64,000 nucleotides of DNA from Dudresnaya verticillata (taxonomy: Eukaryota), in NCBI GenBank assembly GCA_977862235.1, contig OZ374564.1, forward strand, positions 2,108,001 through 2,172,000. Reading direction: 5' to 3'. This document shows, in pieces, positions 3,630-64,000 of the stretch. Position numbers and translations under genes: made by a program. The notes beneath the pieces were generated by a model. It was not told where the DNA came from. It ran no database searches and saw only the letters and a program-made list of their open reading frames with translations. Every line of letters begins with the position of its first letter. The stretch's first letter is position 1.

Positions 3630-3665
<36 letters not shown>

Positions 3666-3666
<1 letters not shown>

Positions 3667-30417: not shown

Positions 30418-30426
30418 TATATATAG

Positions 30427-31817: not shown

Positions 31818-31944
31818 ACTGGTCTCCCGACCTAGAAGTGTGCTACGTTTCAACGAGTTACTCCGTCGTGCGACGTCCGACCTTCCGTCTCTAGACGTCC
31901 GTCGCTAATCGTCCACGACGTTCAAGCAACTCTACGACTGCATT

Positions 31945-41640: not shown

Positions 41641-42304
41641 TCGCACAGCACCTCCTCCCCGCATTCCCTATCGCATCGCGCATCAACCCCAACACGCGCC
41701 GCCGCTGCCAACATCCCCACCCCATCCCGCCGCGCACCTCGCGCACGAGCTCTACTGCGCATCATCGCGCATCAACACCAACACGCCCCGCCGCTGCGAA
41801 CGTCCCCACCCCATTTCGCACCTCGCACACGAGCTGTACTGCGCATCATCGCGCATCGCCCATCAACCCGAACACGCCTCGATGAGCGGTGCATTGCAAT
41901 TGCAGAGCCGGCGCAAAGCGTGTTGAAGTGTAGACAGGTGCCGGCTGGGTCCCAGCCAGTGTGCGGGTCCAGGTTGCAATTTGGGCTCGGTGATTTTGGG
42001 GGGAGGTTCGTGGGGAGAGGATCGATCGTATTGCGCAGGCCTTCATTTTCCGATATCTTGGCGGCGTGGAGCGCTGATGCTGCAGCCCAGGACACTTTCG
42101 GGGTAGTGGAATAGCAGAGTTGTTGGAGCCGGCGTGCTAGAGAATGTCGTAGCTGTCGGCGGCGACGGGGGGAGTTGGGATTCTAAAGAGTGCTTGCAGC
42201 TTTCTGAGCCTGTGTGTGGGCATATTGTGTGTCCGCTGACCAATTGAGACCCGGAGGAAGAGAGCCTAGACGCTGTCCATGTTTGAGACGCTTTTCAATC
42301 TTTC

Positions 42305-43300: not shown

Positions 43301-46300
43301 TGTCAAAGTGTCAGACTCCACAGTGTCCAGCACAGCAAGGACATTGGCGACTTGCGCGCATTCTATTCTTGCCCTGCTGTCGAAAAAAAAGCGCTGCCAC
43401 GGCCGACGTCGAGTCACACGACCAGCTTGTCGCATCCCAACACGCCGGCCTTCGTGAGCCGATGGATGGGTGCCTGGTAGAGTTGTGCTCGGCGAGACGC
43501 GCAGCCGTTAGCTGGGGCCACCGCATTGCACTGTTCTTCTTGCAGCCCGCCCCGCTTTTTCAGCGCCGTAGCTCTTGTCACCGAGCATTTCGTTGCGAGC
43601 CGTGCGCCACGTTGTCTGGAAAGCCCGATTTCTCACCGTCTATTTGTTGCATCAAGCATCTTGTATCTACGAGTTACACAAAGCTGTCATTGTCGTGGCC
43701 TGTCCAGTCGTAGAGTCCATAGCCCGCCCTGAAGAAAGCTAATAACAATGCACGTGCATAGTCGCCAGTTATCCACTCAGCCGCAACCGCGCGTGGAGAG
43801 CTCACGCCAGCAGCACAAAATGATGTCCGAGCTAAAGCCAGCTGCGGCCTGGCGAGGGGTTTCAAAACATCTCTTTTTGTGTCGTCTCAGTCACAATTGT
43901 GGACGTCTTCTTTTCCGAATATGTAAGCTTTCCCTTTATAGCCGCTGTCAACTCGAGCCACGCATGCCTTGGCCGGGTTAATGACCTTTTGCTCTGTGGT
44001 CCGTGCTTCATCAACAATCTTAAACGTTTTGGTTTCCACACATGTAAGCGTGCTCTGTATAGATGCGATGGGAACATTTTCTGTGCAACAGGGTCTTCAT
44101 CCTGCCTAGGCGCGATCCCCGCCATTCACCTGTCCCATTCCCGGAGAATGGAACGTGTAGTATGCAACAAAGTCCTGCAGTGCTTTTCTCCAAGTAGTAT
44201 CTGCGAGAACGTGTGAATAAGTCGTACTTGCAAACATGAACGGCACTAATCAACTTATTTCGTTGGGGCTTCGTGGCGTTCATCTCCTAATTGCACCCAA
44301 GTTTGAGCCCGCTGTGCACCACAAGAGCTTACTTTCGGCAACTAGGTAACACTGGAATCCTGATAATGCCCCCAACCAATCGCCTATCATCAGTAGAGCG
44401 TTACTGTGAGAAAATGGCTTCAAAGAAGCACCACAAGCCCGTGGCTGTTGGCCTCTTGTGTGAGCGGCTGTTGCCAAGGCGCCCCAGGCCGCAGTTCTGA
44501 GCTTTTTATCGACTCAAACGCATATGCATTCTTCTCTCTCGATAGAAAAAAATACTGTTGAGCCACTTGCGCTGGAATCCGTTGACAGAACAGAGCCATT
44601 ACACAGGATTTATCTCCTGAAATTTCTAGTAGCTGAAACTGGCCTGCTGGCATGACAACTCCCAAAGCTTTTTGTTCCTGGGCACATAATCACAGTCTCT
44701 TCAGTTCCATGATCCATAAGGATGCGTTGTCAAAAGGATCAAGGAAAACCATATGGCACTCTGTCGAAAGGCGACAGGCAGTAAGACTCTATGAATACGA
44801 ATCAAAAGGTGCAAGTCTGTTCCGTATTCACAACCTTATACATGTGCTGATGTGCTGTGCATCGCATCCCAGCCATGTGACATGTATGGCGACAACTGCT
44901 ATTGCAGCGGCATTGTCAGAATTGAAGGATCGAGGAAAGCCAATAGTGGTAGAAACATATTTGTCAAGCTGCGATATTCTGCGTGCAGCAATCTTCGGGA
45001 TATTCCAACGCTGTATTCCAGATCGCCGCTCTTGTGGGATTAGGCTAGACATGCGCACTGATACGCGTGCAATGCCTCTCTAGGAGAGTGAACACGGTTT
45101 AGAAGCATTATGTAACAGGTCCAACACCAACAGATACTGTCCACTTGCTTTCCGTAGAAACTTGCACCTTTCAAGGCGGCAAGCCGTCCACGCACTCATG
45201 AAACACGCTCTCGGCAAAGAACGACAGATGTCCTTGACGTCTGTACTTGTATTTGTCGATGGATACGATCAATGTACATGGTTCTGGGCTCCCGTTGAGC
45301 TGTGCGTTATTGCGCTGTGAATAGCTCTTGCAAAACAACCAGTTCAGTGCCATTGCGACTTGTTCTCGTTTTCGGCGACAAGTGGGAGAAGAACGAGCTG
45401 GTCTGCAGCTTCTTGGGTTCAGAGTCGCGACCGTCCGAACACGCATGAAAGTGAAGGGGAACTGTTTGGGGGAAGAGATGGGCCACCTTCACAATGGCTG
45501 TGTTCAAGAGACATCAAAAGACTGCAGTCCAACTACCAGGGGCTCGACTCCATCTCCACCCCCGCTCCTTTTGCCTCCTACCATTGCAGAGAATGGATTG
45601 TCGAGCCAGTGAATAGAGCATATACGAATAATGTGTGCCAGTGGCTCCACACGTCATTCCTATCCCATGTTAGGACGGTTGTGAAAAGTTTCTTCCCGCA
45701 GCTCTTTGCCGCGCCATGGGTTGATCCGTGAAAGCTTTTAGATGTGCTGTGCCCGCAATACGCCGGTCATCTTCGACAAGTTGCAATATTATCGACGTGG
45801 ACGAAGATAATCGCGGATGTGCAGAACCTTGCAAGCGGTTGTTTAACCTTTTTGCCCGTAAATTTGCGCCTCTGAAAGAGGGTCTTTGGTGCGCCGTACA
45901 ACGGGTACAGTTTTCGTTGTGCGGTACAAATAGCACAACCATCTTTGAAGATCGCATCCGGCCGAAATCGACGCACCGCTACTCATTTCCTCCTGATTCG
46001 AACGCGTGACCAAGAGCCTGCGAAATAGAGCTGAGCCCGCGGAAACTCGCAAGCTATGCTCACATTTTGGCTGACAACAGCACGGGACCCATGCACACAC
46101 GACCCGCCAGGCATGTCACGTTGGTCAGCAGGAGAGGTAGGAAGCTAGCAAGATCGCGGCAGAACTCGATGTGGGCGAGCCGAGCGGGAGCTGACAACCA
46201 GCGATGTATGTCATTGGGGTTGCTGCCAAAAACACTTTGGGGCGTGCGCCACGCTGCCGGAAGGGCGCGTCGCATCGCATTGCGTGCAAGTCATCAGACT

Positions 46301-46439
46301 GATCGGGACGACCTGCTTGCAAGAGGTGCGGCGGTCGGTGGGTGCGTTGTCAGCGGCGGCGCGGCCCGCACTCGCGCGCCGAACCGGCCGCATGTGGAAT
46401 GCGCGCGAGCGTTGCAAGGTGGAATACCCGCACTGTCTC

Positions 46440-47022
46440 GTGTCAACTTGCCCCGTACGGACGACATTCCGTCCGGGCTGACGGTGACGTGGTCGGCCTC
46501 GTCGTAAGGCCCCCCACCGACAGATTGTCCGACCTACAGAGCATGTTGGTACTGCGCCTACGCCGGCTCTCATCTTCCCGCTCCCCTAAGCTCTCTTGGG
46601 CTTCCCGCACGACCCTAGATGCCCTCTCGCGCTCGTATGACCACTCGCTTTGTAGCGCCGTTGCCTGCCCCAAGTCCGCAGCTGAGCGGCACGCCCTGCA
46701 CCTGCTATACTGGCGCCTTGACCTCCAAGGGCGACTACCTGCTCCTGTTTATACGTCTGACCGCCTTGCTCCCGCTCTGGAACTACCTGTGTCCGCTCAC
46801 CGCCATCTCGCAGTCCGCTGGCATCTGGGTACATTCCCGATCCCACCCCCCGATCCCGCTCTCGCCACATGCTTCCGAATCGCTTCCACAACGCTGGCAC
46901 TGCTGGGCCAGCCTGCCCCCACCTCGGCCACGGGACGTGACGTCTCCCAGAGCATTCAAGACATTCGCCGCGTTGGCTTTCAACGCAGTCAGCCTCCCGA
47001 CTCCACCCCTTCAATCCAATAG
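46440..47022 (+). mobile_element. Probable LINE C-terminal fragment
   Basis: LAVRWHLGTFP motif shared with ~15480-15520; lies downstream of the RT fragments. Confidence 0.4.
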
Positions 47023-48235
47023 CACGCATTGAAGATATACAGTCGTTGTTCCTCCTTTCCATGTGATAGTGTGCTGTCTCATAGGCCTTTTGTTGCCGAT
47101 GCCGGTGCACTCAAAACCGTCCTATAAAGTTTAATATCTCCTCCTCCTCCCAACACGACACCTTCTACGTCCATCTTCCTCGCGGTTCCGTATTGCTGTA
47201 ACATAGCCATTTTCCAGCCTCCCGCTTGCCAAGCGGGAAGTGCGTTCATAAAAGAGTTCATCAGCCTCAGTAAATTTACTCAACCCCGTTTTCTACTCTA
47301 TCTATTCATTGCTATCACTTGACATTCTCACTACACGATTAACTCCTCTTCTTCTTCTTCGCTGCTTAAGGGTTTCGTGCAGCTCCACAGTTCCGCGGAC
47401 ACCGAACGGACAGCTCTGGCGACAACTGTCCTAACCGCCGTCGCTTCCCGCCTCAAGTGGCGGTAGCAGTGCATGAGGAATGTCCAGCGGCATGGAAGAT
47501 CTGCCAACAAGCATCTAGAGGAATGATGCATCCACGGCCCCGGTAGAGTAGTAGTAGCGAGGCGGGTCGGGTCACAGCACTGTGAGAATATAGAGAGCTT
47601 CGATTTGCAGGTAGGTGCACTCAAGCAATACACTTGCGCCTCATCGCGGGACGAGTGCCCGCAGTTCCGAGATTACTGCAATCGCGTGAAAACCTATCCA
47701 ATATTATGGAGAATGACCAACAGCTTTTCGGAAAGCCGCACGTAAATTTCTATTAAACAGCACATACACTGTACGAGATCTGAAAACCTATGATAGGTTT
47801 TCCGAAACGTGAGTGCTCATGTGCTGTTTAATAGCTTTTTGAATCTCACTGGTCGAAAAGCTGTTATAGGTTTTGCGATTGCCTCGGGCCAAACACCTTT
47901 TTGATAGAAACTACGTTTGCTCGACCCCAGGACCTATTCCATATTATGGAGAATGCAAGATAGCTTTTCAGGTCGTGCGGCATAACTCTCCAGGATTTTT
48001 TCCACGAGATTTATCGCTGATTCCCTTCCCGGACTTTTCTTTTGGAACACCTGGGTCCCTCCACCAGTCCGGTTGCCGGCCAGCGCCCTCTCAAACGCAA
48101 TCGCAACCGAACCGTCGCGTTTCGCTACAACCCCCTCCCGTCCGCCCCCCGCGACTGGCGCCAGGTCGCACCCCACCGCACCCCACCGACCCGCACAACT
48201 ACTGTGCTTCCCGTCGCACTGCCGCACCACGCCGC

Positions 48236-48680
48236 TGGAGCTATTTTCGGGCCTTTTTATGCGTTGCGTGCAGTCCAGATGGAAAGAATATCGCCACGGG
48301 CGGTGAAGATGATCTGGTTTCGATCTGGTGCCCTTCAGAGGAGCGGCTGGTTGCGTGGTTAGAGAAGCATACGTCTTGGTTCAGTGCAGTGGCGTGGGAC
48401 TCATCTCTAAGTGCACCCGACCGGTATCGCATCGGCAGCGCAAGGCAAGATGCGAAGCGGTTGCCGTGAGATTTCGCGTTGGATGTGTTGTATCACATAT
48501 CTCCGCAATGAAGACTTGGCACTGGTGTGGTAGGGTTGCGTAGCTACGTACGTGATGTGAACAACGCGCCCAGCGCTGCGACCTCCTCTGGCGGCAGTAC
48601 GAATGGTCCTGTTGGGAATGGCTCGGCGTCTGGGCAGCAAACAGTGGAGCGCAAGGCGAGCAATCTTTCTCGGCTGCGTA
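48236..48680 (+). pseudogene. WD40 fragment (CreC/WDR20-like), copy A; copy B at ~60117-60561
   Basis: FLCVACSPDGKNIATGGEDDLVSIW...LEKHTSWFSAVAWD...YRIGSAGQDA. Confidence 0.8.
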
Positions 48681-48685
48681 GAAAT

Positions 48686-49690
48686 AGCGAGTTCTATCAG
48701 TGCGACTTTGACATCGCTGACAAATACCCCTCCATGGTCCCGGATGCAGACGTGCTCGTTGTGATGATACAGATGTTCGACACACTTGCTAGTCAGGGCA
48801 AGTTCCACACAAAGCTTCTCTAGAGCATCAGGAGCTACAACATCAAGGTCAGCAACATGGTCATCATGGATGCCATCTTCCGTGTGTGTGGCCTACCGGA
48901 CGAAAAGCTTCGGACCATCTGCTCTACTGTCGACAAGCTTGACAAAGAGAGCTGGGAGGATGTCAAGGAGATGGTTGTGGATAAGGGACTGGATGAAGCC
49001 GCCGCCGACAAGATCGAAACGTTTGTTATGCTGAATGGCGACCCGTTGGAAATCTTAACGAAGTTGCGCGAACAAGAGGAATTGGCAGAGGTCTGTGGCG
49101 AAGCTCTTGATGTAATGGAGAAGCTTTTCAACTTGGTGGAATTCATGCGCGAGGGGCAACCGCAGTGGCTTTCGTTTGATCTCCCGCTCGATCGTGGGCT
49201 CGACTAATACAATCGCGTCATTTTCGAGGCGGTCTTGGTCGACAAGAAAACGAGCTTGGGCTCCATTGGCGCTGGGAGTCGCTATGAAAATTTGGCGGGC
49301 ATGTTTCGTAAGTCGAGTACACCGTGTGTTGGGTGCTCTCTAGGTATTGAAATAATTATGAATCTGATGGTCCAGGCTGCGCAGAAACAGGCGGCAGCGG
49401 AGTCGGTTGACGGGAAGGGAAAGGTGCGCGACGACGATGGATGTGCTTGTTGTGACGGTCGGAAAAGGAACTATGAAGCCCAGACTGCGGCTTTCCGCAG
49501 AAAGCTGGCGCGCCGGGTTTCTATTGAGTTTTGCTTCAATGAGAATGGACAATGGGAAAGCAGGTGACGCAGGCCATTACTCAAGGCATTAACCTCATGG
49601 TGATTATCGGAGAGGACGAGATTGCACAAGGTGTAGCAAAACTTAAAGTGCTGGCGACAAAGGCCGAGCAGACCATCCCAAGGGGAATAC
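48686..49690 (+). pseudogene. Histidyl-tRNA synthetase fragment, copy A; copy B at ~60567-61540
   Basis: [38 protein letters not shown], GSIGAGxRYENL, CVGxSLGIE and anticodon-domain VIGEDEIAQGV; N-terminus absent, with stops and frameshifts. Confidence 0.92.
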
Positions 49691-50044
49691 GGCCCTGTGT
49701 TAGCGCCCTTTTTCGAGAGGAGTGATCATCGTTCATGGTCGTCGTCGATGCTCTTTGAATGGACGGCATCCCGAATTGCTGTTCAACGCGAGATTTGTCT
49801 TCTTCGTGGGCCCAGTTCGTTTCTGACTCACCATGTCCGATGTTTGTGGTCAAGCACGATCAGCGATGTTGAACCCACAAGCCAAGCAAGGCCGGAGGAA
49901 GCGCGTTGGTGTGAGATATATGTAAGTTGCAGTATTGGCTTGAAGTTGTCGAATTTCTGGTGGACTCACCTTAGTCATCTTAACCTAGGAGAAACAGTTC
50001 AATCACTCTCCAACCCATGCGCTGAGCTATCTTATTTGCTCAGG

Positions 50045-50580
50045 TCGCGATTGGGTCGGCTTTGCAGGTGTTCGAAGTGTCCACGCTAGGACAGCCGTAT
50101 GAAAATATCAAAACAGTAATGGCAGCTCACCGAACAGGTAACCTTAGAGGTTCCTTGCGCCGTTTAGACTCGTCTTGAGGAAGCTCTGCATTTGGGCAAG
50201 GGCTCATGCCGTGGGCCTGCACAGAGGCGCTAACGAAGGGAAGAATGCCTATCTTTGCGCAGCATGAGATAAAGAATCTCAAACAATAGGTGGGGATGGG
50301 ACGTTTGCGTCTATTGCCATCGGTGGAATGGGTAGTGGCGTGTGCCAAGGCTACTACAAAATGGGGTTCTGTACGTTCATGAAGACAGTTCAAGTAACAA
50401 GAAGAAAAGGCGTTGGCGGTGGTCAGAAGAGCTGCATAGCTGTGGCTAGTGACATCTTGCCAAGGGAAGGAATCCTAGGGATTTACAAAGCCGTACGCCA
50501 TTGACGTCAATGCTGTAGCGTTGCGGCAAGCAACGAATTGGGGATCTCACTTTCGGTTCTGCAGAGTTGTTGAGTCCATC
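50045..50580 (+). pseudogene. Mitochondrial carrier fragment (YHM2-like citrate/oxoglutarate carrier), copy A; copy B at ~61895-62410
   Basis: EVSTLGQPYENIKTVMAAHR, QGLMPWA, FMKTVQV and REGILGMYKGVNAVALRQATNWGS match recalled YHM2-family motifs. Confidence 0.85.
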
Positions 50581-51331
50581 ATCCACAGGAAGGATGGCGC
50601 CTTTTGATAGTGTCATAAGGTATCATACTTTTCAATCACTGGCAGACTCACCTCTGGGCTCGTGCAACACAATTCGAGAGAGACTTTTCTCAGCCTCATT
50701 GCACTCTTGCAACTCCCGTGGCGTGTCGGGAAAGCTCCGAGTACGGGAATCTGCAGTTAGATGAACGGAGCACCGGCTTTGGCGAGCATAGCGAGGCGGA
50801 CGCGGTGAGCTTACAAACCTTCGTTCTACAAAACCAGGCGCGGGGTCGCAAAGGAATGGGAAGAAGACGTCACCGTTGATTGCGTACTTGTGGAGTTCGA
50901 GTCGCTCACCAGGAATGGCAGGCTACCAGTTTCTGTGCAGAAGAAGTTGCGCGAGTGCCTTCACAAACAGTAGCACCCGCAGCCATCTGTAGAGCAAGGA
51001 ATAGATGTACGTTTACTGAGTCAGAATGGGAAGTATAGAGTGAAGGTGATTAGGGTAATGTGTTTGAGAGCTGCTATGAAACTGGTTTGTTTTCCTGTTC
51101 GTCCAGGACTACCACTTTCTATACTTGAGCAGTAGTGCTAGGATGCGAAATTGGTACTGTGCGAGTGCTGTGCGTTCCTTGCCTTTCAATGTAAATAACG
51201 GGGTTTGTTTGGTCAGCGTTGCAAAAGCGTTTGAGGCAAGGCACACCGGAAGCCATTTGAAGTTAGAGCGGGTGATGTCGTGGTCCAGCACGTGATGAAG
51301 TTTCAGCACTTCAGCAGTTGGCGTCGACGGA

Positions 51332-51532
51332 AATGAAAACACGCGAAATTGTTGTTGCGCAAGTGATTGTTATTTGCCTTGCAATGGCAATACGAGGGCA
51401 ATGATAACACGCGAAATTGTTGCTGTGCGAGTGATTCTTATTTGCCTTGCATTAGCAACACCGGGGTAATGATAACTCGCGAAATTGTTTTCGTGCGAGT
51501 GGATTGTGTTGTTTGGCTTGCAACGGCAATAG
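51332..51532. repeat. 68-bp tandem repeat, about 3 copies, subterminal to the right TIR
   Basis: aac(a/t)cgcgaaattgtt starts at 51338, 51406 and 51474. Confidence 0.85.
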
Positions 51533-53436
51533 CTGGGGGTGTTTGCGAAGCGATGAAAAAGCAATTGACGCAAGGCGCACCGGCAGCCATGCGCAGGTAG
51601 AGCGGTTGGTGTCACTCTGCAGTACCTGATGCAGTTTCAACACTTGAGCAGGAACTGCTCAATTTTCCCCCAGTCGCACAACACTTACCACCGCGGCGAG
51701 GCATGTCGTAAATGTGAAGTATACGACTTCACGCGCACTTTGACATGCCTGCGCGGTGCGGTAGAGTAGGTGCGCGAGGTGCGCGGCTTGATGGGGAGGG
51801 CGGCAGGGGCGGGTGTAGACAGCGGGGTGTGGTGAGCTTGCAGTCTGATATGGGAAGCGAGATGGCGGTAGAGGTGGTGCGGCACAGGCGCCGCACTGGA
51901 CCCGGAGTGGAATGATGGCCACGAGACGGAGGGGTGATACTGGTGAGCCAGGGTAAATCTGGGCCAAGCAGTACCAGTCGTGCGGGGCGACACTGCGCCC
52001 TTGGTCCCAGCCCAGGGCAGGCCGGGGGGTGAGGCGAGCGGGGCCAGACATGCCGGAGCACGGGCGCAGGCGCCCGTGCGCGCCCAGGCGCCCCCCCGAA
52101 GGGCAGCAGGGGGCAGCGCAATTTCTGGCTAAATTTTAATCCAGAAATTCCGAAACTTTCCAAACTTTCGCGAAAGTTTCGGGACATTTCACCCCTATAT
52201 GCAGCACGCCATAACTCCGCAACCGTACATGCTATCCCAAAACCGATTCCACCATTCTTCTCAGCTCTCTCTTCCCAGTCCAACGCGATATAGAAAGGGT
52301 CATTCCATGGCCTTTTTTTTCAGACTGATTCGCGACACAGATTCTGAAAACCCGGAAATCTGTGTTCTTACAACAGCAGCTGGGTATCGACCCGGGTGAA
52401 AGTCTGGTGAATTCGCAAGATGCGTTGGATCTCAGTGCTGTGTTTCATACCTTGGGAAAGCTGTACCTTAGCCAGAGGTATCATATTTTATTTCCAGCTG
52501 TTGGCAGGAATCGTTATTCTGTGAGGTTTGCGGCTGTCACAGCTGTGTCCACGACAGAGATATCTTTCATGATGCTTGACTGCTTGTTTGCAAAACGTCT
52601 ACTGTCTGAGAGGGAGGTAGCCGTTGATGGGTTATCTGATCTTCATAAGGAAGAGAACGCGGAAGCTGGCTCAACATATGGAAATGGTCGGCAAGGGCGT
52701 AAAGCAGATATCGGGCAAGACCCAACCCTATCGCAACATGTGTGTAAGCTTATGCGGAAATTCACAACGAGGCAGAAGCCCCTTTTGTGCTGCTGTGTCC
52801 AAGTCAGAGAGAAGTATAATTGCAACATTTGGGTTCATCTTACGGGGTAAATCGTAGCAGCCCACAAACTTCACCTTCAGTTGGGCTTTGGTATCTTGCG
52901 TCAACTAATGCCCTCGTTACATCCACAGCACACTCAATTGTCTGCGCTTAGCGTCAGTTCAGATACTGCAGCCGAAACCGACACGTTTGGTCGAGAAACA
53001 TCAGATATTCTTTTGCTTAACTAAGTGCGTGACACACGGGCCCATTTCGGAACGATTCATCTCTGTCACTTCTGGTAGTCTCGGCACATGCAAAAATTGC
53101 CTGCCGTCAATCTTTGAGGCGGGTAAGAATGAAATGAGTATGAACTTGCTGTTCATCTTGAATACCAGTCGTGGTGCTATGCGGGCAGGCCGCATTTTGT
53201 CTGCAATACAGTAACAGACGCTGTTTTGTTGTTCTTCTTCTTGATGGCCTTTAAGCACTTCCTACCCCTACGAGTCACGGATTGCAATATTGTCACCATT
53301 TCCATCCAGTTGCGGATAGAATCGCGACTGAAGACAAGCGGGAAGTGCGTTCATCAAAGAGTTCATCAGTCGCAGTAAATTTAATCAACCCCGTTTTCTA
53401 CTCTATCTATTCATTGCTATCAATCTGGATGTCTCA

Positions 53437-53814
53437 CTACACTATTAACTCCTCTTCATCTTCGCTGCTTAAGGGGTTCGTGCAGATCCACAGCTCCGTG
53501 CACACCGAGCGCACAGCTCTGGCGATAGCCGTCCTATCCGCCGTCGCTTCCCGCCTCAAGTGGCGGTAGTAGTGCATGAGGAATTCGAGTTCCTCCATGC
53601 ACTCGCGAGCCTCCCTTAAACAGTCCTTCACGATGTCGTGCTGGGCGCGCACATCGATGCGAAGTATTACCACTTGTTCGTATGCTTGTCGGATTGTGTT
53701 GCGGGTCATGGTAGGTGTTGACTGTGCAGGGGGATTCAGGTCGACTTCCATCTTTAATTCTGTGGACTGTGGACTGTCGCAGACAAAGCCGGTCACCTGG
53801 TGGAGTTGGAACAA
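53437..53814 (-). CDS. Small hypothetical coiled-coil ORF
   Basis: Helical, charged, acidic C-terminus; the 3' half is conserved in frame in copy A (47331-47480). Confidence 0.4.
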   Translation of the reverse strand: MFQLHQVTGFVCDSPQSTELKMEVDLNPPAQSTPTMTRNTIRQAYEQVVILRIDVRAQHDIVKDCLREARECMEELEFLMHYYRHLRREATADRTAIARAVRSVCTELWICTNPLSSEDEEELIV

Positions 53815-54361
53815 GTATCTCAGCAGGGTTTGGGCGCGTCAAGTCAAGAGATAAATGTCGATAGTAATGGAAATCCTTTACTGCTCATCTACACTCATCT
53901 ACATGGAAAAATCCAAGTCCTGTTATTCGCTGTGACGTTCGCAAAAGGCAATGTGTCATGGAGCCAATTCCTCGATCTGTGCACCTGGCACCATACGTTG
54001 CATTTGTTGGACCTCGTCTAGAAGTATTTTTGAATGCTCGTATGTCACGCGGATGTCGTCACAGTTTACTTCTGGGGATGAAGGTACCTGTTGCTGGGTA
54101 AAAGTTGGACAATGCAGTGCCGGCGGTTTTCTTGCAGCCTTTAATGTATGGGAAGAGGAAAAGAACCCCTGAGCTCTCAAAGCAACGAAACGACAGACTA
54201 CCCAATCGTTACTACCTTTTCTTCTTTGTGGTAGTAGTACTACTACTGCTAATACCTTCACGGAGCGCCTCATTCGTACATTCGAGTCAAATTGTTGACC
54301 TGAACTGTGAGATGCCTGACTTGCAGTAACCGCATCTCCCTTTCGGTGCTTTCATTCATCT

Positions 54362-54832
54362 CTACATATCTGGTCTTGAGTAATAGACGGCAGAACCGGT
54401 CCAAATGAAAAACCTCTTCTCCAGCCCCGTGGACTGTCTCAGATATATAAGATTCCAGTAACAGAGCATTTCCCCTGCATAGCTTCCCTCCTTCACCATT
54501 CGGACTTTTCGGCGTAGTAGGCGATACAATTCGCTAAGACTCCTTGTCTCGTGTCTGTGGTTTCGCGCTTCAGCGTGCGACAGATTCTGGCAGAAACGTT
54601 GAAAAGCTTCACTGTCCCTGCCCTCGACCAGTTCGATGCCTGACTCACTCAAAGCTTCGTGAGCCCACTGCCTCGACGTTCGGGCCAACTTCATGGACAA
54701 ACTCCCGTCAAGTGTTTTGAACATGGCATCAAGGCGATCCTCAATTGACTCGTCCTGGCATTTTCCATCGAATGGTGCCCCGTCGCGATCCACGCTAACA
54801 ATAGACATGGTTGGTGAAATGTTTGGTTGCAT
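54362..54832 (-). CDS. Hypothetical ORF (from MQPNISP)
   Basis: Protein-like composition within a 255-codon open frame; no family recognised. Confidence 0.35.
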   Translation of the reverse strand: MQPNISPTMSIVSVDRDGAPFDGKCQDESIEDRLDAMFKTLDGSLSMKLARTSRQWAHEALSESGIELVEGRDSEAFQRFCQNLSHAEARNHRHETRSLSELYRLLRRKVRMVKEGSYAGEMLCYWNLIYLRQSTGLEKRFFIWTGSAVYYSRPDM

Positions 54833-55636
54833 AGACGAGGAGCGCTTTGTGCAACATGCAACAGTATCCTTGCTGCAGCAACTATGTTTTATATGACCAG
54901 TAAATCCATGTCCACGATTTTTCTGCACAAGAATGTTACAGTTAGAACGAAGAGCAAACTGACCGCAACAGTTGCGATGTTGTATTAGCGGGAAGTGCTC
55001 TGTGTCTGACGCACTCGTTATTATAGTATTACGGATGTTGTTGGATGACGGACACGGGTTAGAAAATGGAATACTATGCGCAGTTACGCCACTGTACGGT
55101 TTTAACGGAGCGGGGTCTCTTAGGGACAAATAGGGGTCGAAATGCTTGACCGTATTAACGTTATGCCTGTACGGTTCCTATTGAACACCATGGCCACGGA
55201 TGGCGCTGAGGCCCTCGCGAATTATTATTATAGCAGCGAGTGTCTCGTGAATCATCAGGGGTCGTTCCGGGTTTATCTGCACAGCTCAATACCACGCGTA
55301 AATTATGATATCACCTGACTAATGACGTAATATACTAATCAAACTGTTACGAAGACGACGGAAATTGATCCACAGTACGACGATGCTAGTACAGAAACTG
55401 ATCCCGTCACCCTGCTGTAATCCGTCAGAGGATCCAGAGACTGTCGTCCGAGTAGTAGATGTACTCGTCCCCATGAAACAAAATTGTCCTATACTGTTCC
55501 GTATGATGAACGCAGTCGTTCTATTACAGGAGCAGTGAAATAATGAATGTGATAGTAGTCACAAATGGTTAGGTTGTACACTCCCACAATTAGGACACAG
55601 GAAACAGAATTTTTATCAAACTGTTGGCTAACGCCA

Positions 55637-55975
55637 TCACTCCAATGCTTCTTTCAGGTCTTGTAGCCTTTTCTTCAAGAATCGCACATGAACGCAGCGC
55701 CCGGTGCTACGTCTAATCAGGTTCGCTAGGCGCCGCGGATTTCCCTCGGACTTATCTCCCTCACAATCCATACATCCGCAGTGAGGGCCCTTCCATAGGT
55801 CCAGCAGAGTCAGCCTTTCTATCCTCCGCCACTCATAAAATTTCTTTCCTCTGTAATTGAACTTATAGTTTCCGTCGAAGTACTGCTGAGGTTTCGCAGT
55901 CCTGAGACTGGAGAGTTTAGTACCGAGACTGCAGCATGTATCTGTCCACGATTGGTATGAGCGGAATCCATGCAC
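55637..55975 (-). CDS. Hypothetical 112-aa ORF with HCGCMDC, divergent from the ParB-MTase gene
   Basis: ATG-initiated ORF with a Cys/His cluster; no family recognised. Confidence 0.3.
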   Translation of the reverse strand: MHGFRSYQSWTDTCCSLGTKLSSLRTAKPQQYFDGNYKFNYRGKKFYEWRRIERLTLLDLWKGPHCGCMDCEGDKSEGNPRRLANLIRRSTGRCVHVRFLKKRLQDLKEALE

Positions 55976-56177
55976 AAGCGGATGAGGTCAATGACAGCGG
56001 CTGAGTCACATGGTTTTAATTTAATGCACATTCTTTCTCTCATGCAGTGGGAAACGTTGTACATGCATGTATGGAGCAAGGGCGGAAAGCTGTGTCCGAC
56101 AGAGGCAGTAGTCAGAATTCATTCAGACACCCCATCCAGAACTTCGTCTTACCGGTGCACACGATAGCCTGAGAAAT

Positions 56178-59107
56178 ATGCCACCGAAGAAGAAGGGAGT
56201 GGCGGTGAAGTCTGTATCCAACACAGGACAGACCTCATCAGACGTAAGAGCGCCTGTATCATCTGGGAATGATAGATTTCTGTTCAGAGATGTCGTTAAT
56301 GGAGCTACGCACAAGCGAGTCGACCCTCGTTCATGTGTCCCCTTGACCTACGTCCGCCCGATCTGCAGATCGGGCGTCGAGCGATTGAAGCGCATTTTCC
56401 GGGGGACCGACCGGTACAGTTCAGGGACATTGAAGTCTCCCGTGGAAGGAGCTCCGGACTCTATCGGTTACGTGGCTGGTAGTGATATGCCTGTCGTTTT
56501 GCCATTTACAGGGGCATTGAGAAGCCGTGTGTCCGATTATTTCAGGTCACAAACAAGGAAGGAGTGCACGCGTCGTTCCGAGAAAGAAGTTCAGGACATT
56601 GTGAAATCGAGGGGGAAATGGTACGGAGTAGTTGATGGCATGCATAGATTGGCAGCTATTCGTGAGCTGCTTGAAGAAAACTACAACCAGTGGAAAACCT
56701 TTGACTGGCCTGTGCTGGAGCTGAACCCGCGGACCGACCTGGTGGTCCTGAAGCAATTCGCTAGACATCAGAATCGTAAGCACGAGGCAACTGCTTCGTG
56801 GAAACTACCCTGTATAACACATTGAAGGGTCTGAAAGATGAGGCTGTTCGCCTTCAAGCGGAGGGAAATGGTATCAAGCCGACAGCAAAAGCGGTTGCGT
56901 CCGCCTACGATGGGGGTGTTCATATGCACGAGAACACAGTGAGGCAGACAGCGCAAGTAGCTCTCCGACTAAGTCATCGTGTCATCGATGCGATAGGGGA
57001 GATAATGGGGGAAGAAATACCGCAGCTTGCATTGGCTTCACGAAATGGAAGAACTGCTAAATCAGTAGCAGACGATGCCCTGATGTCGTCGATGGACTGC
57101 CGGGTTTTCCGGAAGTTTATTACTCTGAACTCACTGAAGGCTGCCACAGAGTTCATGCGCGCGGGCCAAATGAGTGGCGTGGTACATGATGAGGGTGTGG
57201 AAGTCCAGGTCTCGACACTCTACCGCATTCGAGAAGTATGCAGGAGGAACGGGTTCAGGCCCGTTCTTTACGGGGTCACAAAAGCAGAGTTCGGGAAGGC
57301 TAAAGATGCGCTAGCAGAGGTTCGCAAATTCGAAGGCCTTCGTGAATATGAGGACTGGCCGGGTCCCATGGACACGATGCTGACAAATCTTCTGCCATCC
57401 CAAAAGGTTGATGGCGATATCATGCTTAACAGGGGCAACGACACATTGATTTTGCAATGCATCCTGGATATGTACAAGGACTGTTGTCCAGAAGAAGCAC
57501 CCCTGAAGATTCAAAAGTACCATTCTGTTAGAGATAGGAACAGAAAGGAGTGCGATGAAGAGAATAATTTAGACCGGGAGTGTGTGAATGAGATTACGAC
57601 TGGAGTGCAAGATTCAGGGGGGGTCAATTCCGATCAGGTAACAGCTGCTACAAACAAGGACCATCCCTCTGACGGACAGATCGAACACGATGACGTTCCC
57701 TCTCCTTCTGTGAACGTAGATTCGTTACCTTACAGTCGAGACCTCGGTTCTACCGGAGACCATCACAATCATGATGCAGAAGATGTGCAGGGATCGGCTG
57801 TAAAATCTACTGTGACGGTGAGCACGGAAAACCGGAGAGGCTGGCTGTACGTGGGGACAAGAACGGACCTGACGACCATTTGTAAGCTGATATCTTGAAG
57901 TCGTACAGAATAACCTGCCATCAGATGCGGTGGCAGGTATACAATAAGAATATTCGCGAGGGTGTTGGTGACCTATACGACATAGTTCTTACCGACACAC
58001 CGTATGGAACGCCTGCATCACAGTCTGGTACAGGGAAACAGTACGACAACTATATGAGTGATTCTGAAATATCCGAGCTTGCAGAAATGTGCAGGGAATC
58101 CGTTGTACCGGGAGGGTGCGTGTTCATGTTCGTGTCCTACCAGACATTCGAACCGATAAGGCAGGCTCTTCTGAAGGCCGGATTCACTTGCCCAACGTAC
58201 GCCTTTTCGATTGCAAAGGATACACGCACGGTGCAGGAGAGGCGAGGAAATGACTGTCCCCAAAATGGCCACGAAATTGCCGTCATGGGAAGAGCCCCAG
58301 GACAACACCCCAACGGATTTAAAGTGGATCTTCGAAGCCCATATCAATTAGTGAAGGCTTCGGAAAAGAGGAAGTTTGCGGGCATGTCTCAAATTCCCGT
58401 TTCTAAGAAGAAGCTCCTTAAACCGGGTACAAAATCCCCGGTGCTTACTGAGGAGAAGAATGTTCAGCTGTTGGTGGAATTGTTGACGACCTTCTGCCCT
58501 GAGGGGGGCCATTTTTGACATGTATGCTGGAACGATGACAGCTGCAATTGCAGCCGTGCAGACGGGTAGGAAATGCACCTGTATAGAGCAGAGCCTACAT
58601 ACATACAGGTTTGCAGTTGCACGCCTGAAAAGGATAGCAAGTGATCATCGCAAGTTGTCGGAAGGAATGGAAGGAACACCACTGTGCCATGGTACAGCGG
58701 AAGAGGCCCTGGGAGAAGACTAGGGAGTGGATGTGGAAAACCCGCAACAGAAACTGCTCAGGAATGAGGCGAAGAAAAATTCGGATTGTATTACAGGCGG
58801 CGATGCAGTTGTTCTGTACGTTGGGAAGAACGCTGTTGGGAAGGCAAAAGTCCAATTCGGGGCAAGTTCTGATGAAAACGTTCGCAAGCATATTCATCTG
58901 AAACCCCTGTCGGAATACGAAAAGCCAGGACAGGAACTCATTGCGGTGTACGCCTTCGAATGTGATTCATCCTTTACCACCTCGGCATATCCGTATAACT
59001 TTCATGTCCCGAACGGCCGCCCTTCCACGATTCTAAGTGAGCTAGACGGCTTTTTTGCATGGGATATCCATGCGATGAAAGCCCAGGAGCGGTGCGACCA
59101 GAAATGA
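56178..59107 (+). pseudogene. ParB/Srx-like domain fused to a beta-class N6-adenine/N4-cytosine DNA methyltransferase (disrupted)
   Basis: MPPKKK start; VRPICRSGVERLK and WYGVVDGMHRLAAIREL (ParB-like); YDIVLTDTPYG (motif IV, 57994-58005); EEKNVQLLVELLTTFCPEGG/IFDMYAGTMTAAIAAVQTGRKCTCIE (motifs X-I-II). Five consecutive ORFs join via 3 frameshifts (~56790, ~57830, ~58510) and 2 stops (~57884, 58721). Confidence 0.85.
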
Positions 59108-62100
59108 GGGTAAAGCAGAGTTGAGCATAATAATCGTTCGCTTCACTAGTTTCCTACGCCATAGCGCAATATCGTAAGCCATGATCACATGCTACTCCTC
59201 GCAGGAGAGCATGTACTGCCACCGACAGCGCTATCCCGGTAGAAGTCTACAGCGCAAAAGTTGCATCATCGCTCGGTCCCATTTCCGCAGCAGCTTCTCT
59301 TTCACAATGTCGGATCTGCATAGTTCCATCGAATTATAGCTCTTGCAGAGCATGGGATGAATGTAGAGCGGCATGGAAGATCTGCCAACAAGCACCTAGA
59401 GGAATGATGCATCCAAGGCCCCGGTAGAGTAGTAGTAGCGTGACGGGTCGGGTCACAGCACTGTGAGAATATCGAGAGCTTCGATTTGCAGGTAGGTGCA
59501 CTCGAGCAACACACTTGCGTCTCATCGCGGGACGAGTGCCCGCAGTTCCGAGATTACTGCAATCGCGTGAAAACCTATCCAATATTATGGAGAATGACCA
59601 ACAGCTTTTCGGAAAGCCGCGCGTAAATTTCTATTAAACAGCACATACACTGTACGAGATCTGAAAACCTATGATAGGTTTTCCGAAACGAAAGTACTCA
59701 TGTGCTGTTTAATAGCTATTTAAATCTCACTGGTCGAAAAGCTGTTATAGGTTTTGCGATTGCCTCGGGCCAAACACCTTTTTGATAGAAACTACGTTTG
59801 TTCGACCCCAGGACCTATTCCATATTATGGAGAATGCAAGATAGCTTTTCAGGTCGTGCGGCATAACTCTCCAGGAATTTTTCCACGAGATTTATCGCTG
59901 ATTCCCTTCTCGGACTTTTCTTTTGGAACACCTGGGTCCCTCCACCAGTCCGGTTGCCGGCCAGCGCCCTCCCAAATGCAATCGCAACCGACCCGCCGCG
60001 TTTTGCTACAACCCCCTCCTGCCCGCCCCCCGCGACTGGCGCCAGGTCGCACCCCACCGCACCCCACCGACCCGCACAACTACTGTGCTTCCCGTCGCAC
60101 TGCCGCACCACGCCGCTGGAGCTATTTTCGGGCCTTTTTATGCGTTGCGTGCAGTCCAGATGGAAAGAATATCGCCACGGGCGGTGAAGATGATCTGGTT
60201 TCGATCTGGTGCCCTTCAGAGGAGCGGCTGGTTGCGTGGTTAGAGAAGCATACGTCTTGGTTCAGTGCAGTGGCGTGGGACTCATCTCTAAGTGCACCCG
60301 ACCGGTATCGCATCGGCAGCGCAGGGCAAGATGCGAAGCGGTTGCCGTGAGATTTCGCGTTGGATGTGTTGTATCACATATCTCCGCAATGAAGACTTGG
60401 CACTGGTGTGGTAGGGTTGCGTAGCTACGTACGTGATGTGAACAACGCGCCCAGCGCTGCGACCTCCTCTGGCGGCAGTACGAATGGTCCTGTTGGGAAT
60501 GGCTCGGCGTCTGGGCAGCAAACAGTGGAGCGCAAGGCGAGCAATCTTTCTCGGCTGCGTAGAAATAGCGAGTTTTATCAGTGCGACTTTGACATCGCTG
60601 ACAAATACCCCTCCATGGTCCCGGATGCAGAAGTGCTCGTTGTGATGATACAGATGTTTGACACACTTGCTAGTCAGGGCAAGTTCCACGCGAAGCTTCT
60701 CTAGAGCACCAGGAGCTACAACATCAAGGTCAGCAACATGGTCATCATGGATGCCATCTTCCGCGTGTGTGGCCTACCGGACGAAAAGCTTCGGACCATC
60801 TGCTCTGCGGTCGACAAGCTTGACAAAGAGAGCTGGGAGAATTTCAAGGAGATGGCTGTGTACAAGGGACTGGATGAAGCCGCCGCCGACAAGATTGAAA
60901 CGTTTGTTAAGCTGAACGGCGACTCGTTGGAAATCTTAACGAAGTTGCGCGAACAAGCGGGATTGGCGAAGCTTTTCAACTTGGTGGCATGCATGCGCGA
61001 GGGGCAACCGCAGTGGCTTTCGTTTGATTTTCCGCTCGCTCGTGGGCTCGATTACTACACTGGCGTCATTTTCGAGGCGATCTTGGTCGACAAGAAAACG
61101 AAATTGGGTTCCATTGGCGCTGGGGATCGCTATGAAAATTTGGTGGGCGTGTTTCGAAAGTCGAGTATACTGTGTGTTGGGTACTCTCTAGGTATTGAAA
61201 TAATTATGAATCTGATGGTCCAGGCTGCGCAGAAACAGGCGGCAGCGGAGTCGGTTGACGGGAAGGGAAAGGTGTGCGACGACGATGCATGTGCTTGTTG
61301 CGACGACCGGAAAAGGAAATATGAAGCTCAGACTGCGGCTTTGCGCAGAACTTTGGCGTGCCGATTTCCACGGCGTTTCGCTTCAAAGAGAACTGGAACA
61401 TGGGAAAGAAGGTGACGCAGGCCATTACCCAAGGCATTACCCTCATAGTAGTTATCGGAGAGGACGAGATTGCACAAGGTGTAGCAAAACTTAAAGTGCT
61501 GACGACAAAGGCCGAGCAGACCATCCCAAGGGGAATACGGCCCTGTGTTTGTGCCCTTTTTCGAGAGGAGTGATCATCGTTCATGGTCGTCGTCGATGTT
61601 CTTTGAATGGACGGCATCCCGAATTTCTGTTCAATGCCAGCTTCGTCTTCTTCGTGGGCCCAGTTCGGTTCTGACTCTCCATGTCCAATGTTTGTGGTCA
61701 AGCACGATCAGCGATGTTGAACCCACAAGCCAAGCAAACCGGGAGGAAGTGAGTTGGTGTCAGATATATGTAAGTTGCAGTATTGGCTTGAAGTTTTCGA
61801 ATTTCTGATGGACTCATCTTCGTCATCTTAATCTAGGAGAACCAGTTCAATCACTTTCCAACCCATGCGCTGAGCTATTTTGTTTGCTCAGGTCGCGATT
61901 GGGTCGGCTTTGCAGGTGTTCGAAGTGTCCACGCTAGGACAGCCGTATCAAAATATCAAAGCATTAATGGCAGCTCACCGAACAGGTAACCTTAGAGGTG
62001 CTTTGCGCCGTTTATACTCGTCTTGAGGAAGCTCTGCATTATGGCGAGGGCTCATGCCGTGGGCCTGCATAGAGGCAGTAACGAAGGGAAGAGTGCCTCT

Positions 62101-62757
62101 CTTGCGCAGAATGAGATAAAGAATCTCAAACAATAGATGGGAATGGGACCCTTGCGTCTAGTGCCATCGGCGAAATGGGTAGTGGCGTGTGCCAAGGCTA
62201 CTCCACAATGCGGTTCTGTAGGTTCATGAAGACAGTTCAAGTAACAACAAAAGGCGTTGGCGGTGCTCAGAAGAGCTGCTTAGCTGTGGCTATTGAAATC
62301 TTGCGAAGGGAAGGAATCCTCGGTATGTACAAAGGCGTCAATGCTGTAGCGTTGCGGCAAGCAACGAATTGGGGATCTCACTTTCGGTTCTGCAGAGTTG
62401 TTGAGTCCACCGCAGGAAGGATGGCTTCTTTCGATAGTATCGTAAGGTATCATACTTTTCAATCACTGGCAGACTCACCTCTGGGCTCGTTCAACACAAT
62501 GCGAGAGAGAATTTTCTCAGCCTCATTGCACTCTTGCAACTCCCGTGGCGTGTCGGGAAAGCTCCGAGTACGGAAATCTGCAGTTAGAAGAACGGGGCGC
62601 CGGCTTTGGTGAGCAAAGAAAGGCGGACGCGGTGTGTTACACGGGCCCAGTTGAAAGGCAACCTAGATGGCGCAGGAAACGGCTCGGGTCGTGACGTGCG
62701 CTCAGAAATATTTACTAATCGCGGCTACAGTGCCATGGAGGTTCCGGAACAGGCCTT

Positions 62758-63027
62758 CTAGGATTCGGAGCGGGAGGATCGTGGGCTGGATTGGGCCTCC
62801 ACGGATGTAATCACAGTTTCCAGGGCAAACAAAGCCTGCGATAAGGCCAATGTGACACTTCGATGAACTCGACGAAACATACTGCCAACCATGCGCAGAG
62901 CTGCTCTCTGCAGAGGGGCAACCAGCTGACGTAGCTCATCCTGAGCGCTCCTAAGTTGCTGTAATTCTTCTTCAAGCTCAACGAGTTGCGCTTCGACATC
63001 TTCGAGACTGATGTCTTCCGTTTGCAT
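62758..63027 (-). CDS. Small hypothetical coiled-coil ORF
   Basis: LEDVEAQLVELEEELQQLRSAQDELRQL heptads; tandem with 63054-63299. Confidence 0.4.
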   Translation of the reverse strand: MQTEDISLEDVEAQLVELEEELQQLRSAQDELRQLVAPLQRAALRMVGSMFRRVHRSVTLALSQALFALETVITSVEAQSSPRSSRSES

Positions 63028-63053
63028 CAGGCTTGTTCCGTGACTTCAGACTC

Positions 63054-63299
63054 CTAGTTTCTGCGGGCAAGGTGGCGCTGCAAAGCCGCGATATGTACCC
63101 TGGCTTCTGTAAGTTTCTCCAGGATGAAGACAAGCAGACGGTTGATTTGACACACAACTGGCCACCCTAGTCGCTGAAGCTCACGCGACAAGTACGATAC
63201 CGTCACCCGAATGGTCCTGTTCTCCCCCTGCAGTGTAGCTATTCTCTCCTGAGCGGAATGCAGCCTCCCTTCTCTTGTCTCTTGATACATGTTGTGCAT
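63054..63299 (-). CDS. Small hypothetical coiled-coil ORF
   Basis: LHSAQERIATLQGENRTIRVTVSYLSRELQRL heptads. Confidence 0.35.
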   Translation of the reverse strand: MHNMYQETREGRLHSAQERIATLQGENRTIRVTVSYLSRELQRLGWPVVCQINRLLVFILEKLTEARVHIAALQRHLARRN

Positions 63300-64000
63300 A
63301 AGGTAGAGTCTGGAACGTTTGTCTCACGGCGAACTTCAAATTTTCAGACTGGTACTTGATGCACAGGTTGGTGCATGTTCGCAAACTGATGAAAAGCCAG
63401 CTGTAGCCCACGGCAGCTCATTGTATTGCGTGGAATCTGTGACTTGTCCTTCTTCTGCAAGAAAACTTACGGGGTATCGATACGTAAACATCAACGCAGC
63501 CGGCAGCCGGGGTCGTACTTCTCAGTCACTCTCGATGCTATTTCTTATCCTTGACGCCCATCAATACTACCCGCTTGTGGTCGCATGGCGGAATAGAGCA
63601 GTCTGCAGGGCGTACCCTTGCAATACCGAGTACTGCTTCTTGATTGACGGGGACTCGAGATTCACGACTTGTCCGTTCTGATTGGTAATATGGCACGCTC
63701 GTCTCTCGAATCAGACTGTTTTGTTCGCACTGGTGCTGTAGTGTATGGCGGAATGGAGTGGTGCATACAGAGCGAGAGGGAAGCCCTTCCAATACCAGTC
63801 GTTTTAACTGCGATCCGTAGCAACTCTGGGCATGCGCAAGCCTGTCATGCAGAACGCCCCACCGCCACTGGAACAGTATTATATCGGTGTCGTTTCAGAA
63901 GCGCCCTCGGCCCTCCCGAATATTCCAGCTCTTTCTTCAGAACAAGTAGCGCACAGCTATCGCGCCCTAGCGGGAACATCGATTTTGTTGCTTCACTTCG

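What the first reader, a model, noticed from the sequence alone, without database searches (positions are those of the whole stretch)
56178..59107. Prokaryote-type ParB + beta-class amino-DNA methyltransferase fusion carried in eukaryotic mobile DNA
Seen: five adjacent ORFs reconstruct into one ~975-codon intronless gene. It has an NLS-like start (MPPKKK), a ParB/Srx-like core (VVDGMHRLAA), an acidic linker, then DTPY (one base from DPPY: ACA vs CCA) placed before the SAM-binding FDMYAGT, and an unknown ~125-aa C-terminal domain. Known: motif IV before motif I defines beta-class N6A/N4C MTases; ParB-MTase fusions are typical of phages and prokaryotic mobile elements; eukaryotic amino-MTases of this type are rare (e.g. 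bdelloid N4CMT). Inference: a eukaryotic mobile element or endogenised virus carries its own nuclear-targeted 6mA/4mC writer, possibly marking or protecting its own DNA. This copy is dead, but intact copies may exist elsewhere.
Basis: partly seen in the sequence, partly recalled or inferred. Interest (0 to 1): 0.88.

Follow-up and report, generated by a model that had tools for sequence, protein, structure and literature searches.

The report
Broken transposon ParB-DNA-methylase accessory gene
A broken eukaryotic gene that fuses a bacterial-type ParB DNA-binding module to a DNA amino-methyltransferase domain and has many intact relatives; it is likely a seaweed transposon accessory gene predicted to bind and methylate its own element, a kind already noted in algal transposons in 2025.

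Summary
Five pieces at 56178-59107 (three frameshifts, one stop) are colinear with intact single-ORF proteins of about 1000 aa. These form a large family: 226 clusters at E<=1e-30. Folds of intact relatives give a ParB/Noc-like N-domain with a likely helix-turn-helix and a CcrM-like beta-class amino-MTase (Z 24.5). All 10 nearest relatives keep DPPY, which points to 6mA. Across the family only 23 of 60 keep the catalytic motif. The concept is in print: Ectocarpus Sola1-1 carries a 1104-aa ParB+N4C/N6A-MTase gene, and red-algal Plavaka elements carry MTase and ParB accessory genes. No transposase, termini or viral genes were established here, and no genomic context was obtained for any homologue, so 'transposon' and 'red seaweed' are inferences. 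Added here: family size and anatomy, swappable C-terminal modules, and a 282-bp dyad-symmetric repeat array 460 bp downstream, a candidate parS-like site. Verdict: new member of a known but, in the papers I found, only predicted class.

The parts
56178..56790 (+). Piece 1: basic N-terminus and ParB/sulfiredoxin-like N-domain (DGMHR motif 56634-56648)
   Evidence: fold of homologue P0037: PadC Z 9.1, rmsd 2.8, 97 aligned; Noc/ParB are the top Foldseek rows
56795..57565 (+). Piece 2a: likely helix-turn-helix (56879-56995) and a conserved helical region with the near-invariant DxR motif
   Evidence: (HTH rows at model 225-284, Z 4.0-4.6; pNOB8 ParB Z 9.0 over 217 residues)
57566..57888 (+). Acidic, poorly conserved linker; holds the second frameshift
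57889..58645 (+). Beta-class (permuted) amino-MTase domain: motif IV DTPY 57994-58005, SAM motif FDMYAGT 58514-58534; third frameshift about 58505
58790..59107 (+). Conserved ~100-aa beta-rich C-terminal domain of unidentified family, after an in-frame stop at 58721-58723
   Evidence: present in 23-26 of 60 homologues; no useful Pfam or PDB sequence match
59569..59850 (.). Dyad-symmetric array of GAAAA(C/G)CT(A/G)T half-sites (73/94-bp spacing, two 10-1-10 palindromes): candidate parS-like site, or a MITE/element end
   Evidence: DNA fold z -7.05 (98); second copy at 47688-47969
54365..55987 (-). Decayed divergent (head-to-head) coding region; possibly a transposase remnant
   Evidence: MULE E 0.0045, below cut-off; no homologues of 149-475 aa (37); a SWIM-like CxCxD..CxH at 55640-55987 seen by eye only (71, 125 gave no support)
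53585..59344 (.). 5.76-kb segment holding the gene, absent from the paralogous segment 47230-50815; junction has short imperfect homology and no clear TSD or TIR

Best explanation
This is a broken copy of a ParB-like plus beta-class amino-methyltransferase fusion gene that was likely an accessory gene of a DNA transposon in a likely red seaweed; the intact protein is predicted to bind inverted repeats of its own element through the ParB helix-turn-helix and would then methylate that DNA, most likely at adenine N6. Shown: the fusion, the two folds (in intact homologues), DPPY in all ten nearest relatives, a eukaryotic repeat-rich setting, and an inverted-repeat array 460 bp downstream. Inferred: transposon carriage (by analogy with Ectocarpus Sola1-1 and red-algal Plavaka accessory genes), binding to that array, 6mA rather than 4mC, and an effect that keeps the element active or protected. 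The C-terminal module (a beta-rich domain here, a PHD-like finger in other members) would read chromatin.
For: Colinear intact ORFs of about 1000 aa. The N-domain region is filled in 61 of 64 and the MTase region in 64 of 64 homologues of >=700 aa. Trees of the two halves share 16 of 28 and 26 supported splits with 3 conflicting pairs, so the fusion is old and mostly inherited whole. N-half model pLDDT 83: ParB/Noc rows fill Foldseek ranks 1-11 and VIA ranks 1-9 are ParB/Srx-family or similar. C-half model pLDDT 88: CcrM Z 24.5, BceJIV 22.6, HpyAVI 22.1. The window copy sits in an 11-row clade (SH-aLRT 99) whose 10 other rows all have DPPY, 9 of 10 DGxHR. DPPY is typical of bacterial N6A-MTases, SPPY of N4C (PMC8885841 passage). 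226 clusters at 50% identity with E<=1e-30, on contigs of 1-14 kb where listed, as expected of a diverse repeat family. Published parallels: PMC12477816 and bioRxiv 10.1101/2025.02.11.637652 (which also reports inverted-repeat arrays beside ParB accessory genes). The two array copies give the 4 most palindromic of 637 windows of 300 bp. PHD-like ends: 10 fetched homologues have Cys-rich ends; I read 6 in full and saw a C4HC3-like pattern by eye in 5, P0166 being cut short.
Against: No transposase above cut-off, no TIR and no TSD were found. No genomic context was obtained for any homologue (17, 18, 33, 35, 96 all empty; no host genome). No call names the host or any homologue's organism, so 'red seaweed' is my recall-based reading of the flanking genes. 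Motif IV is lost in 37 of 60 full-length non-redundant homologues, so methylation is not essential to the family. Foldseek E-values for the ParB half are weak (best 6e-3) and HTH Z-scores are in the chance range. The array may be an unrelated MITE, and its motif was defined after the fact.
Confidence: 0.6

Rival explanations
1. A transposon accessory protein whose essential job is DNA binding or scaffolding (TnpA- or VANC-like; comparison recalled), with the MTase domain dispensable or used only to bind or flip bases.
For: 37 of 60 full-length homologues lack (D/N/S)PP(Y/F/W), with at least 5 changes of state on the tree, yet stay open reading frames; the best-conserved residues lie in the ParB/helical half and the SAM-binding strand.
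Against: The window's own clade keeps DPPY in 10 of 10 relatives that differ widely from each other, which implies selection on catalysis there.
Confidence: 0.2
2. A domesticated host gene family (an epigenetic writer like bdelloid N4CMT), with this copy a pseudogene moved by segmental duplication.
For: No element ends or transposase found; flanks are duplicated host-gene fragments; PHD-like ends in some members.
Against: Very high diversity and frequent fragments within clusters; published algal counterparts lie in transposons.
Confidence: 0.11
3. A gene of an endogenised DNA virus that methylates and segregates or packages its genome.
For: Intronless, prokaryote-type domains; top ESM-Atlas hit is a viral hypothetical cluster (0.94); weak ParB-fold matches in BFVD.
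Against: No capsid, polymerase or ATPase hits in the ORFs scanned; no relatives in IMG/VR in two scans; phage matches are MTase-only at 23-32% identity (17 records).
Confidence: 0.07
4. Bacterial or phage contamination, or a chimeric assembly.
For: Prokaryote-type domains; reads could not be checked.
Against: GC 50% matches the flanks; flanks are shared with a paralogous segment carrying WD40, HisRS and mitochondrial-carrier fragments; no relative in GTDB genomes, and only distant MTase-only hits in plasmids (3 records).
Confidence: 0.02

Closest known systems
Ectocarpus Sola1-1_Ec32 accessory gene (PMC12477816; passages and supplement table rows seen)
   Same: [quoted passage not shown]
   Different: Brown alga with a defined Sola-1 element (282-bp TIR, 4-bp TSD). 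Here no element is defined and the copy is broken. Sequence homology could not be tested because that protein is not held.
Red-algal Plavaka accessory genes PAG2 and PAG3 (bioRxiv 10.1101/2025.02.11.637652; section 8 and passages read, supplements closed)
   Same: PF01555 methylase and ParB-like domains carried by red-algal DNA transposons; inverted-repeat arrays beside the ParB gene; genes move among Plavaka, Mutator, Zisupton and Fanzor elements.
   Different: As described, PAG2 is MTase+SET and PAG3 is ParB+2OG-oxygenase, two genes. Here ParB and MTase are one protein, and no SET or 2OG hit appeared in 98 homologues scanned. PAG2 may still be a relative with an undetected ParB half; not testable here.
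Bacterial beta-class N6A MTases CcrM, M.BceJIV, M1.HpyAVI, M.MboIIA
   Same: Fold and motif order (Z 22-24.5), DPPY.
   Different: About 15-20% identity; no ParB half; stand-alone or restriction-modification enzymes.
ParB/Noc/KorB/PadC CTP-binding family
   Same: N-domain fold followed by a likely helix-turn-helix; conserved Arg before the first helix, the GxxR Arg and a downstream Asn (118).
   Different: DGxHR in place of the GERRxR motif (recalled), so the Glu proposed for catalysis in C. crescentus ParB (E102, PMC8367383 passage) appears absent; large insertions; fused to an MTase; no ParA nearby.
Bdelloid N4CMT (PMC8885841; passages)
   Same: Eukaryotic, permuted PF01555 enzyme of bacterial origin (Z 19.6).
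   Different: SPPY, chromodomain, host-domesticated 4mC writer; no ParB.
Chlorophyte-type Dam family with ParB-type HTH (PMC4738411; section 8 and passages read)
   Same: Eukaryotic N6A-MTase fused to a ParB-type element.
   Different: That family is listed in group 2 (M.EcoKI/M.TaqI-like) in chlorophytes and chytrids; this one is structurally the permuted MboIIA/CcrM type with a full ParB N-domain.
Starship cargo DUF3723
   Same: ESM-Atlas feature neighbour of the N-half (0.93, 152-155 of 256 features); mobile-element cargo.
   Different: Fungal; no Pfam DUF3723 hit in any homologue scanned. A lead only.

Membership tests
Beta-class amino-MTase (PF01555) | Catalytic motif IV precedes SAM-binding motif I | tested here: met
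   Sequence; (profile 2-72 on piece 3, 183-218 on piece 4)
Beta-class amino-MTase (PF01555) | Permuted Rossmann fold | tested here: met
   Homologue P0064 model vs CcrM Z 24.5, rmsd 3.2, 230 aligned
Beta-class amino-MTase (PF01555) | (D/N/S)PP(Y/F/W) intact in the window copy | tested here: not met
   DTPY in the window; met in 10 of 10 nearest relatives and 23 of 60 overall
Beta-class amino-MTase (PF01555) | Methyl transfer to N6-adenine or N4-cytosine of DNA | not testable with these tools
   Needs an assay or long-read kinetics
ParB CTPase clamp | ParB/Srx N-domain fold | tested here: met
   (PadC Z 9.1; pNOB8 ParB Z 9.0); no Pfam ParBc hit
ParB CTPase clamp | Central helix-turn-helix DNA-binding domain | tested here: inconclusive
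   Helix pattern and position fit; ParB/Noc alignments run across both domains; HTH rows only Z 4.0-4.6 (80)
ParB CTPase clamp | Canonical GERRxR motif with catalytic Glu (motif recalled) | tested here: not met
   DGMHR in the window; DGxHR in 24 of 59 homologues, Arg lost in most others
ParB CTPase clamp | Dimer, CTP binding, loading at parS | not testable with these tools
Algal transposon ParB+amino-MTase accessory gene (Sola1-1_Ec32 type) | ParB-like and amino-MTase domains in one ORF of about 1000-1100 aa | tested here: met
Algal transposon ParB+amino-MTase accessory gene (Sola1-1_Ec32 type) | Lies inside a DNA transposon with transposase, termini and TSD | tested here: inconclusive
   Only a sub-threshold MULE hit on the divergent ORF; no ends found; no context for homologues
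Algal transposon ParB+amino-MTase accessory gene (Sola1-1_Ec32 type) | Sequence homology to the published protein | not testable with these tools
   No protein sequence surfaced in the supplement search
Plavaka PAG2 | PF01555 plus SET domain | tested here: not met
   No SET hit in 98 homologues scanned or in the window pieces
Plavaka PAG3 | ParB plus 2OG oxygenase | tested here: not met
   The second domain is an MTase
Bdelloid N4CMT | SPPY motif and chromodomain | tested here: not met
   No SPPY among 60 rows; no chromo hit
Endogenous DNA virus | Capsid, packaging ATPase or polymerase genes nearby | tested here: inconclusive
   None among 143 of the 156 ORFs >=75 aa from 39000 onward, 22 of the 51 ORFs >=150 aa before it, or 65 short ORFs upstream; the region is decayed

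The most novel reading that the evidence does not exclude
A eukaryotic transposon has fused a working CTP-gated ParB sliding clamp to a 6mA writer: the protein loads at a parS-like array (59569-59850 type), spreads along its own element and paints a bounded adenine-methylated domain that shields the element from host silencing. Swappable C-terminal readers (an unnamed beta domain, PHD-like fingers) tune it to chromatin, and many lineages have turned into catalytically dead binders.
Probability: 0.2. Interest if true: 0.85.

Novelty: new member of a known kind. Interest (0 to 1): 0.48.

Why it matters
The class was proposed in 2025 from domain predictions, and my ten paper searches found no biochemical test of it. 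This family offers many intact natural DPPY members and a concrete candidate binding site, so two questions become directly testable: do eukaryotic transposons write their own 6mA/4mC, and does a ParB-type clamp work in a nucleus? A positive result would give a self-targeted epigenetic writer and a source of 6mA in algal genomes. The window copy itself is broken and adds little beyond pointing to the family.

Tried and rejected
No host genome held. No sequencing run was listed; this is no evidence on expression or assembly. Context searches were all empty: metagenome contigs, viral contigs, genome contigs; alignment A3 was too divergent to search. These scans need short exact words, so they do not show absence. 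The 5.76-kb gap against the paralogous segment was first read as an empty insertion site. I rejected that because there is no TSD or TIR and an ORF (53440-53838, minus) runs across the left junction, which fits a deletion in the other copy. C-terminal domain: no useful hit in Pfam, PDB sequences or the ESM Atlas, and it was never folded alone, so its fold is untested. A resemblance to the plant CACTA TnpA-type domain (PF03017/DUF8039) is recalled from memory and got no support from any call (paper search empty). A CcrM-like RAMA/PWWP tail was suggested by a long Foldseek alignment, but VIA aligned CcrM only to residue 263. Coupled loss of DGxHR and DPPY: Fisher p 2e-5, but only 5 independent pairs and sign test not significant, so not claimed. 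Divergent ORF 54365-55177: no homologue of 149-475 aa; other lengths not searched. SWIM-like piece: only a cytochrome-c motif match. No Rfam hit in 44000-64000. Homodimer prediction not available: no verdict. Linker composition was computed in the wrong frame and was replaced. The journal version of the Bostrychia paper is not held; its supplements and the Iyer 2011 chapter were not seen and may already list this family. Paper searches.

Full report
Observation. A search with piece 3 among longer proteins found 7 relatives at 45-54% identity, several of them intact ORFs of 887-1010 aa. Six intact homologues align colinearly to the window over all pieces' conserved parts, placing three frameshifts and one stop. 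One frameshift lies in a G run and reads could not be checked, but the other breaks make a dead copy likely. It differs at 16 of 165 columns invariant in its ten nearest relatives, two of them my trimming gaps, against 0-23 in leave-one-out controls, so decay is modest.

Family. A profile of 7 homologues found 226 clusters (50% identity) at E<=1e-30 and 792 at 1e-10 among 1.84 billion; I saw the best 150, and the weaker tail will include ordinary prokaryotic MTases. Of 64 fetched proteins of >=700 aa, 61 fill the N-domain region, 63 the helical region and 64 the MTase region. Trees of the two halves for 59 rows (P0051 and P0038 left out as truncated) share 16 of 28 and 26 supported splits, with 3 conflicting pairs: an old fusion. 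No source names an organism. Contigs, where listed, are about 1-14 kb.

Anatomy. The C-half of homologue P0064 (pLDDT 88) matches beta-class amino-MTases: CcrM Z 24.5, rmsd 3.2, 230 aligned; BceJIV 22.6; HpyAVI 22.1; bdelloid N4CMT 19.6. The N-half of P0037 (pLDDT 83) gives Noc and ParB chains at Foldseek ranks 1-11, though with weak E-values (best 6e-3), and PadC (Z 9.1), pNOB8 ParB (9.0, 217 aligned), KorB, sulfiredoxin and SerK at the top of the wide search. A helix pair at the place of the ParB helix-turn-helix follows; its own Z-scores (4.0-4.6) are not decisive. The motif is DGxHR rather than the canonical GERRxR (recalled), so CTP binding is plausible and hydrolysis doubtful. The ~100-aa C-terminal domain is conserved, present in 23-26 of 60 homologues and unidentified. 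Ten other homologues end in a Cys-rich finger that looks PHD-like by eye, which points to chromatin.

Catalytic state. Among 60 non-redundant proteins of >=750 aa (from 75), 23 keep (D/N/S)PP(Y/F/W) and 24 of 59 keep DGxHR. The window copy falls in an 11-row clade (SH-aLRT 99, quick tree, no bootstrap) in which all 10 others have DPPY. So its lineage was probably an active writer, more likely of 6mA since DPPY typifies bacterial N6A enzymes and SPPY N4C enzymes (PMC8885841, passages). The family as a whole often loses catalysis, which is the main point for the scaffold rival. Joint loss of the two motifs is not supported once kinship is counted (5 independent pairs).

Setting. The window is eukaryotic and repeat-rich: split trypsin genes, a UBX gene, a chromodomain Gypsy element and decayed gene fragments. 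I read it as a red seaweed from recall of such genomes; no call confirms this. The gene lies in a 5.76-kb stretch missing from a paralogous segment. The junction shows only short imperfect homology and an ORF crosses it, so a deletion in the other copy is likelier than a clean insertion. The divergent upstream ORF has a sub-threshold MULE hit (E 0.0045) and no homologues at the lengths searched. 460 bp after the stop lies a 282-bp dyad-symmetric array of GAAAA(C/G)CT(A/G)T half-sites with 73/94-bp spacing (fold z -7.05; with its second copy, the top 4 of 637 windows). It could be a parS-like site or a separate small element. All five completed scans for flanking DNA of homologues were empty. 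Phages and plasmids give only MTase-only hits at 23-32% identity.

What is known. PMC12477816 (passages; supplement table rows) reports a 1104-aa ParB-like plus N4C/N6A-MTase gene opposite the transposase of Ectocarpus Sola1-1_Ec32, and proposes a class of accessory proteins that bind and modify their own transposon. bioRxiv 10.1101/2025.02.11.637652 (abstract, section 8 and passages; supplements closed) reports red-algal Plavaka accessory genes PAG2 (PF01555+SET) and PAG3 (ParB+2OG), inverted-repeat arrays beside PAG3, and movement among element types. No SET or 2OG hit appeared in 98 homologues scanned. PMC4738411 (section 8 and passages) lists a ParB-HTH plus Dam family of a different MTase group and, in what I read, no clade like this one. 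PMC6431247 (passages) notes 16-20-kb multi-ORF En/Spm elements in Chondrus. Starship, TET-transposon and ParB papers were seen as passages only. One earlier AI note (e1-6729164) describes a similar fusion with a dead methylase in an animal; I did not check it and do not count it as support.

Verdict. It works, by inference, like the algal transposon ParB+MTase accessory proteins; membership is met for architecture, inconclusive for transposon context and untested for homology. Best explanation 0.6, scaffold 0.2, domesticated gene 0.11, virus 0.07, artefact 0.02. Novelty: new member of a known kind. Interest 0.48, because the idea is in print but the family size, intact DPPY members and candidate site make it testable. 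The boldest open reading, a CTP-gated clamp that spreads 6mA over its own element, has probability 0.2 and would merit 0.85.

Noticed in passing
window 59569-59850 and 47688-47969: 282-bp array with two-fold symmetry: eight half-sites (one degenerate) spaced 73 or 94 bp (about 7 and 9 helical turns), forming two pairs 1 bp apart and two pairs 22 bp apart; most palindromic DNA in the window.
   Followed up: partly
window 47230-50815 vs 53335-53584 plus 59345-62641: Duplicated segment (89-93% identical) of decayed WD40, histidyl-tRNA synthetase and mitochondrial-carrier fragments, as in Pack-type or Helitron capture; a 9-1-9 hairpin sits at its left edge (47220).
   Followed up: partly
window 55640-55987 (-): CxCxD...CxH pattern like a SWIM finger, followed by further Cys pairs, at the start of the decayed divergent region; by eye only.
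   Followed up: partly
homologues P0040, P0044, P0102, P0115, P0137, P0152, P0162, P0165, P0166, P0170: Cys-rich, PHD-like C-terminal finger in place of the beta-rich domain; no Pfam PHD hit in the 8 of 10 scanned.
   Followed up: partly
window about 30400-40100; related copies 41125-41658 and 51726-52372: Frameshifted chromodomain-bearing Gypsy LTR element, with LTR-like repeats further along.
   Followed up: no
window 9000-18300: Three tandem paralogues of a ~390-aa multi-pass membrane ORF; the two scanned have no Pfam hit.
   Followed up: no
window 23939-28200 (-): Two paralogous ~530-570-aa membrane-anchored ORFs with no Pfam hit.
   Followed up: no
window 343-5183: Two split trypsin-like genes in a very GC-rich (58-74%) block unlike the rest of the window.
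   Followed up: no
window 51132-51651: 68-bp x3 tandem repeat inside a 186-bp duplication.
   Followed up: no
window 47466-50815 vs 59345-62641: Transitions are 97 of 178 substitutions, with only a mild excess at CG and CC: no strong CpG-decay signature.
   Followed up: no
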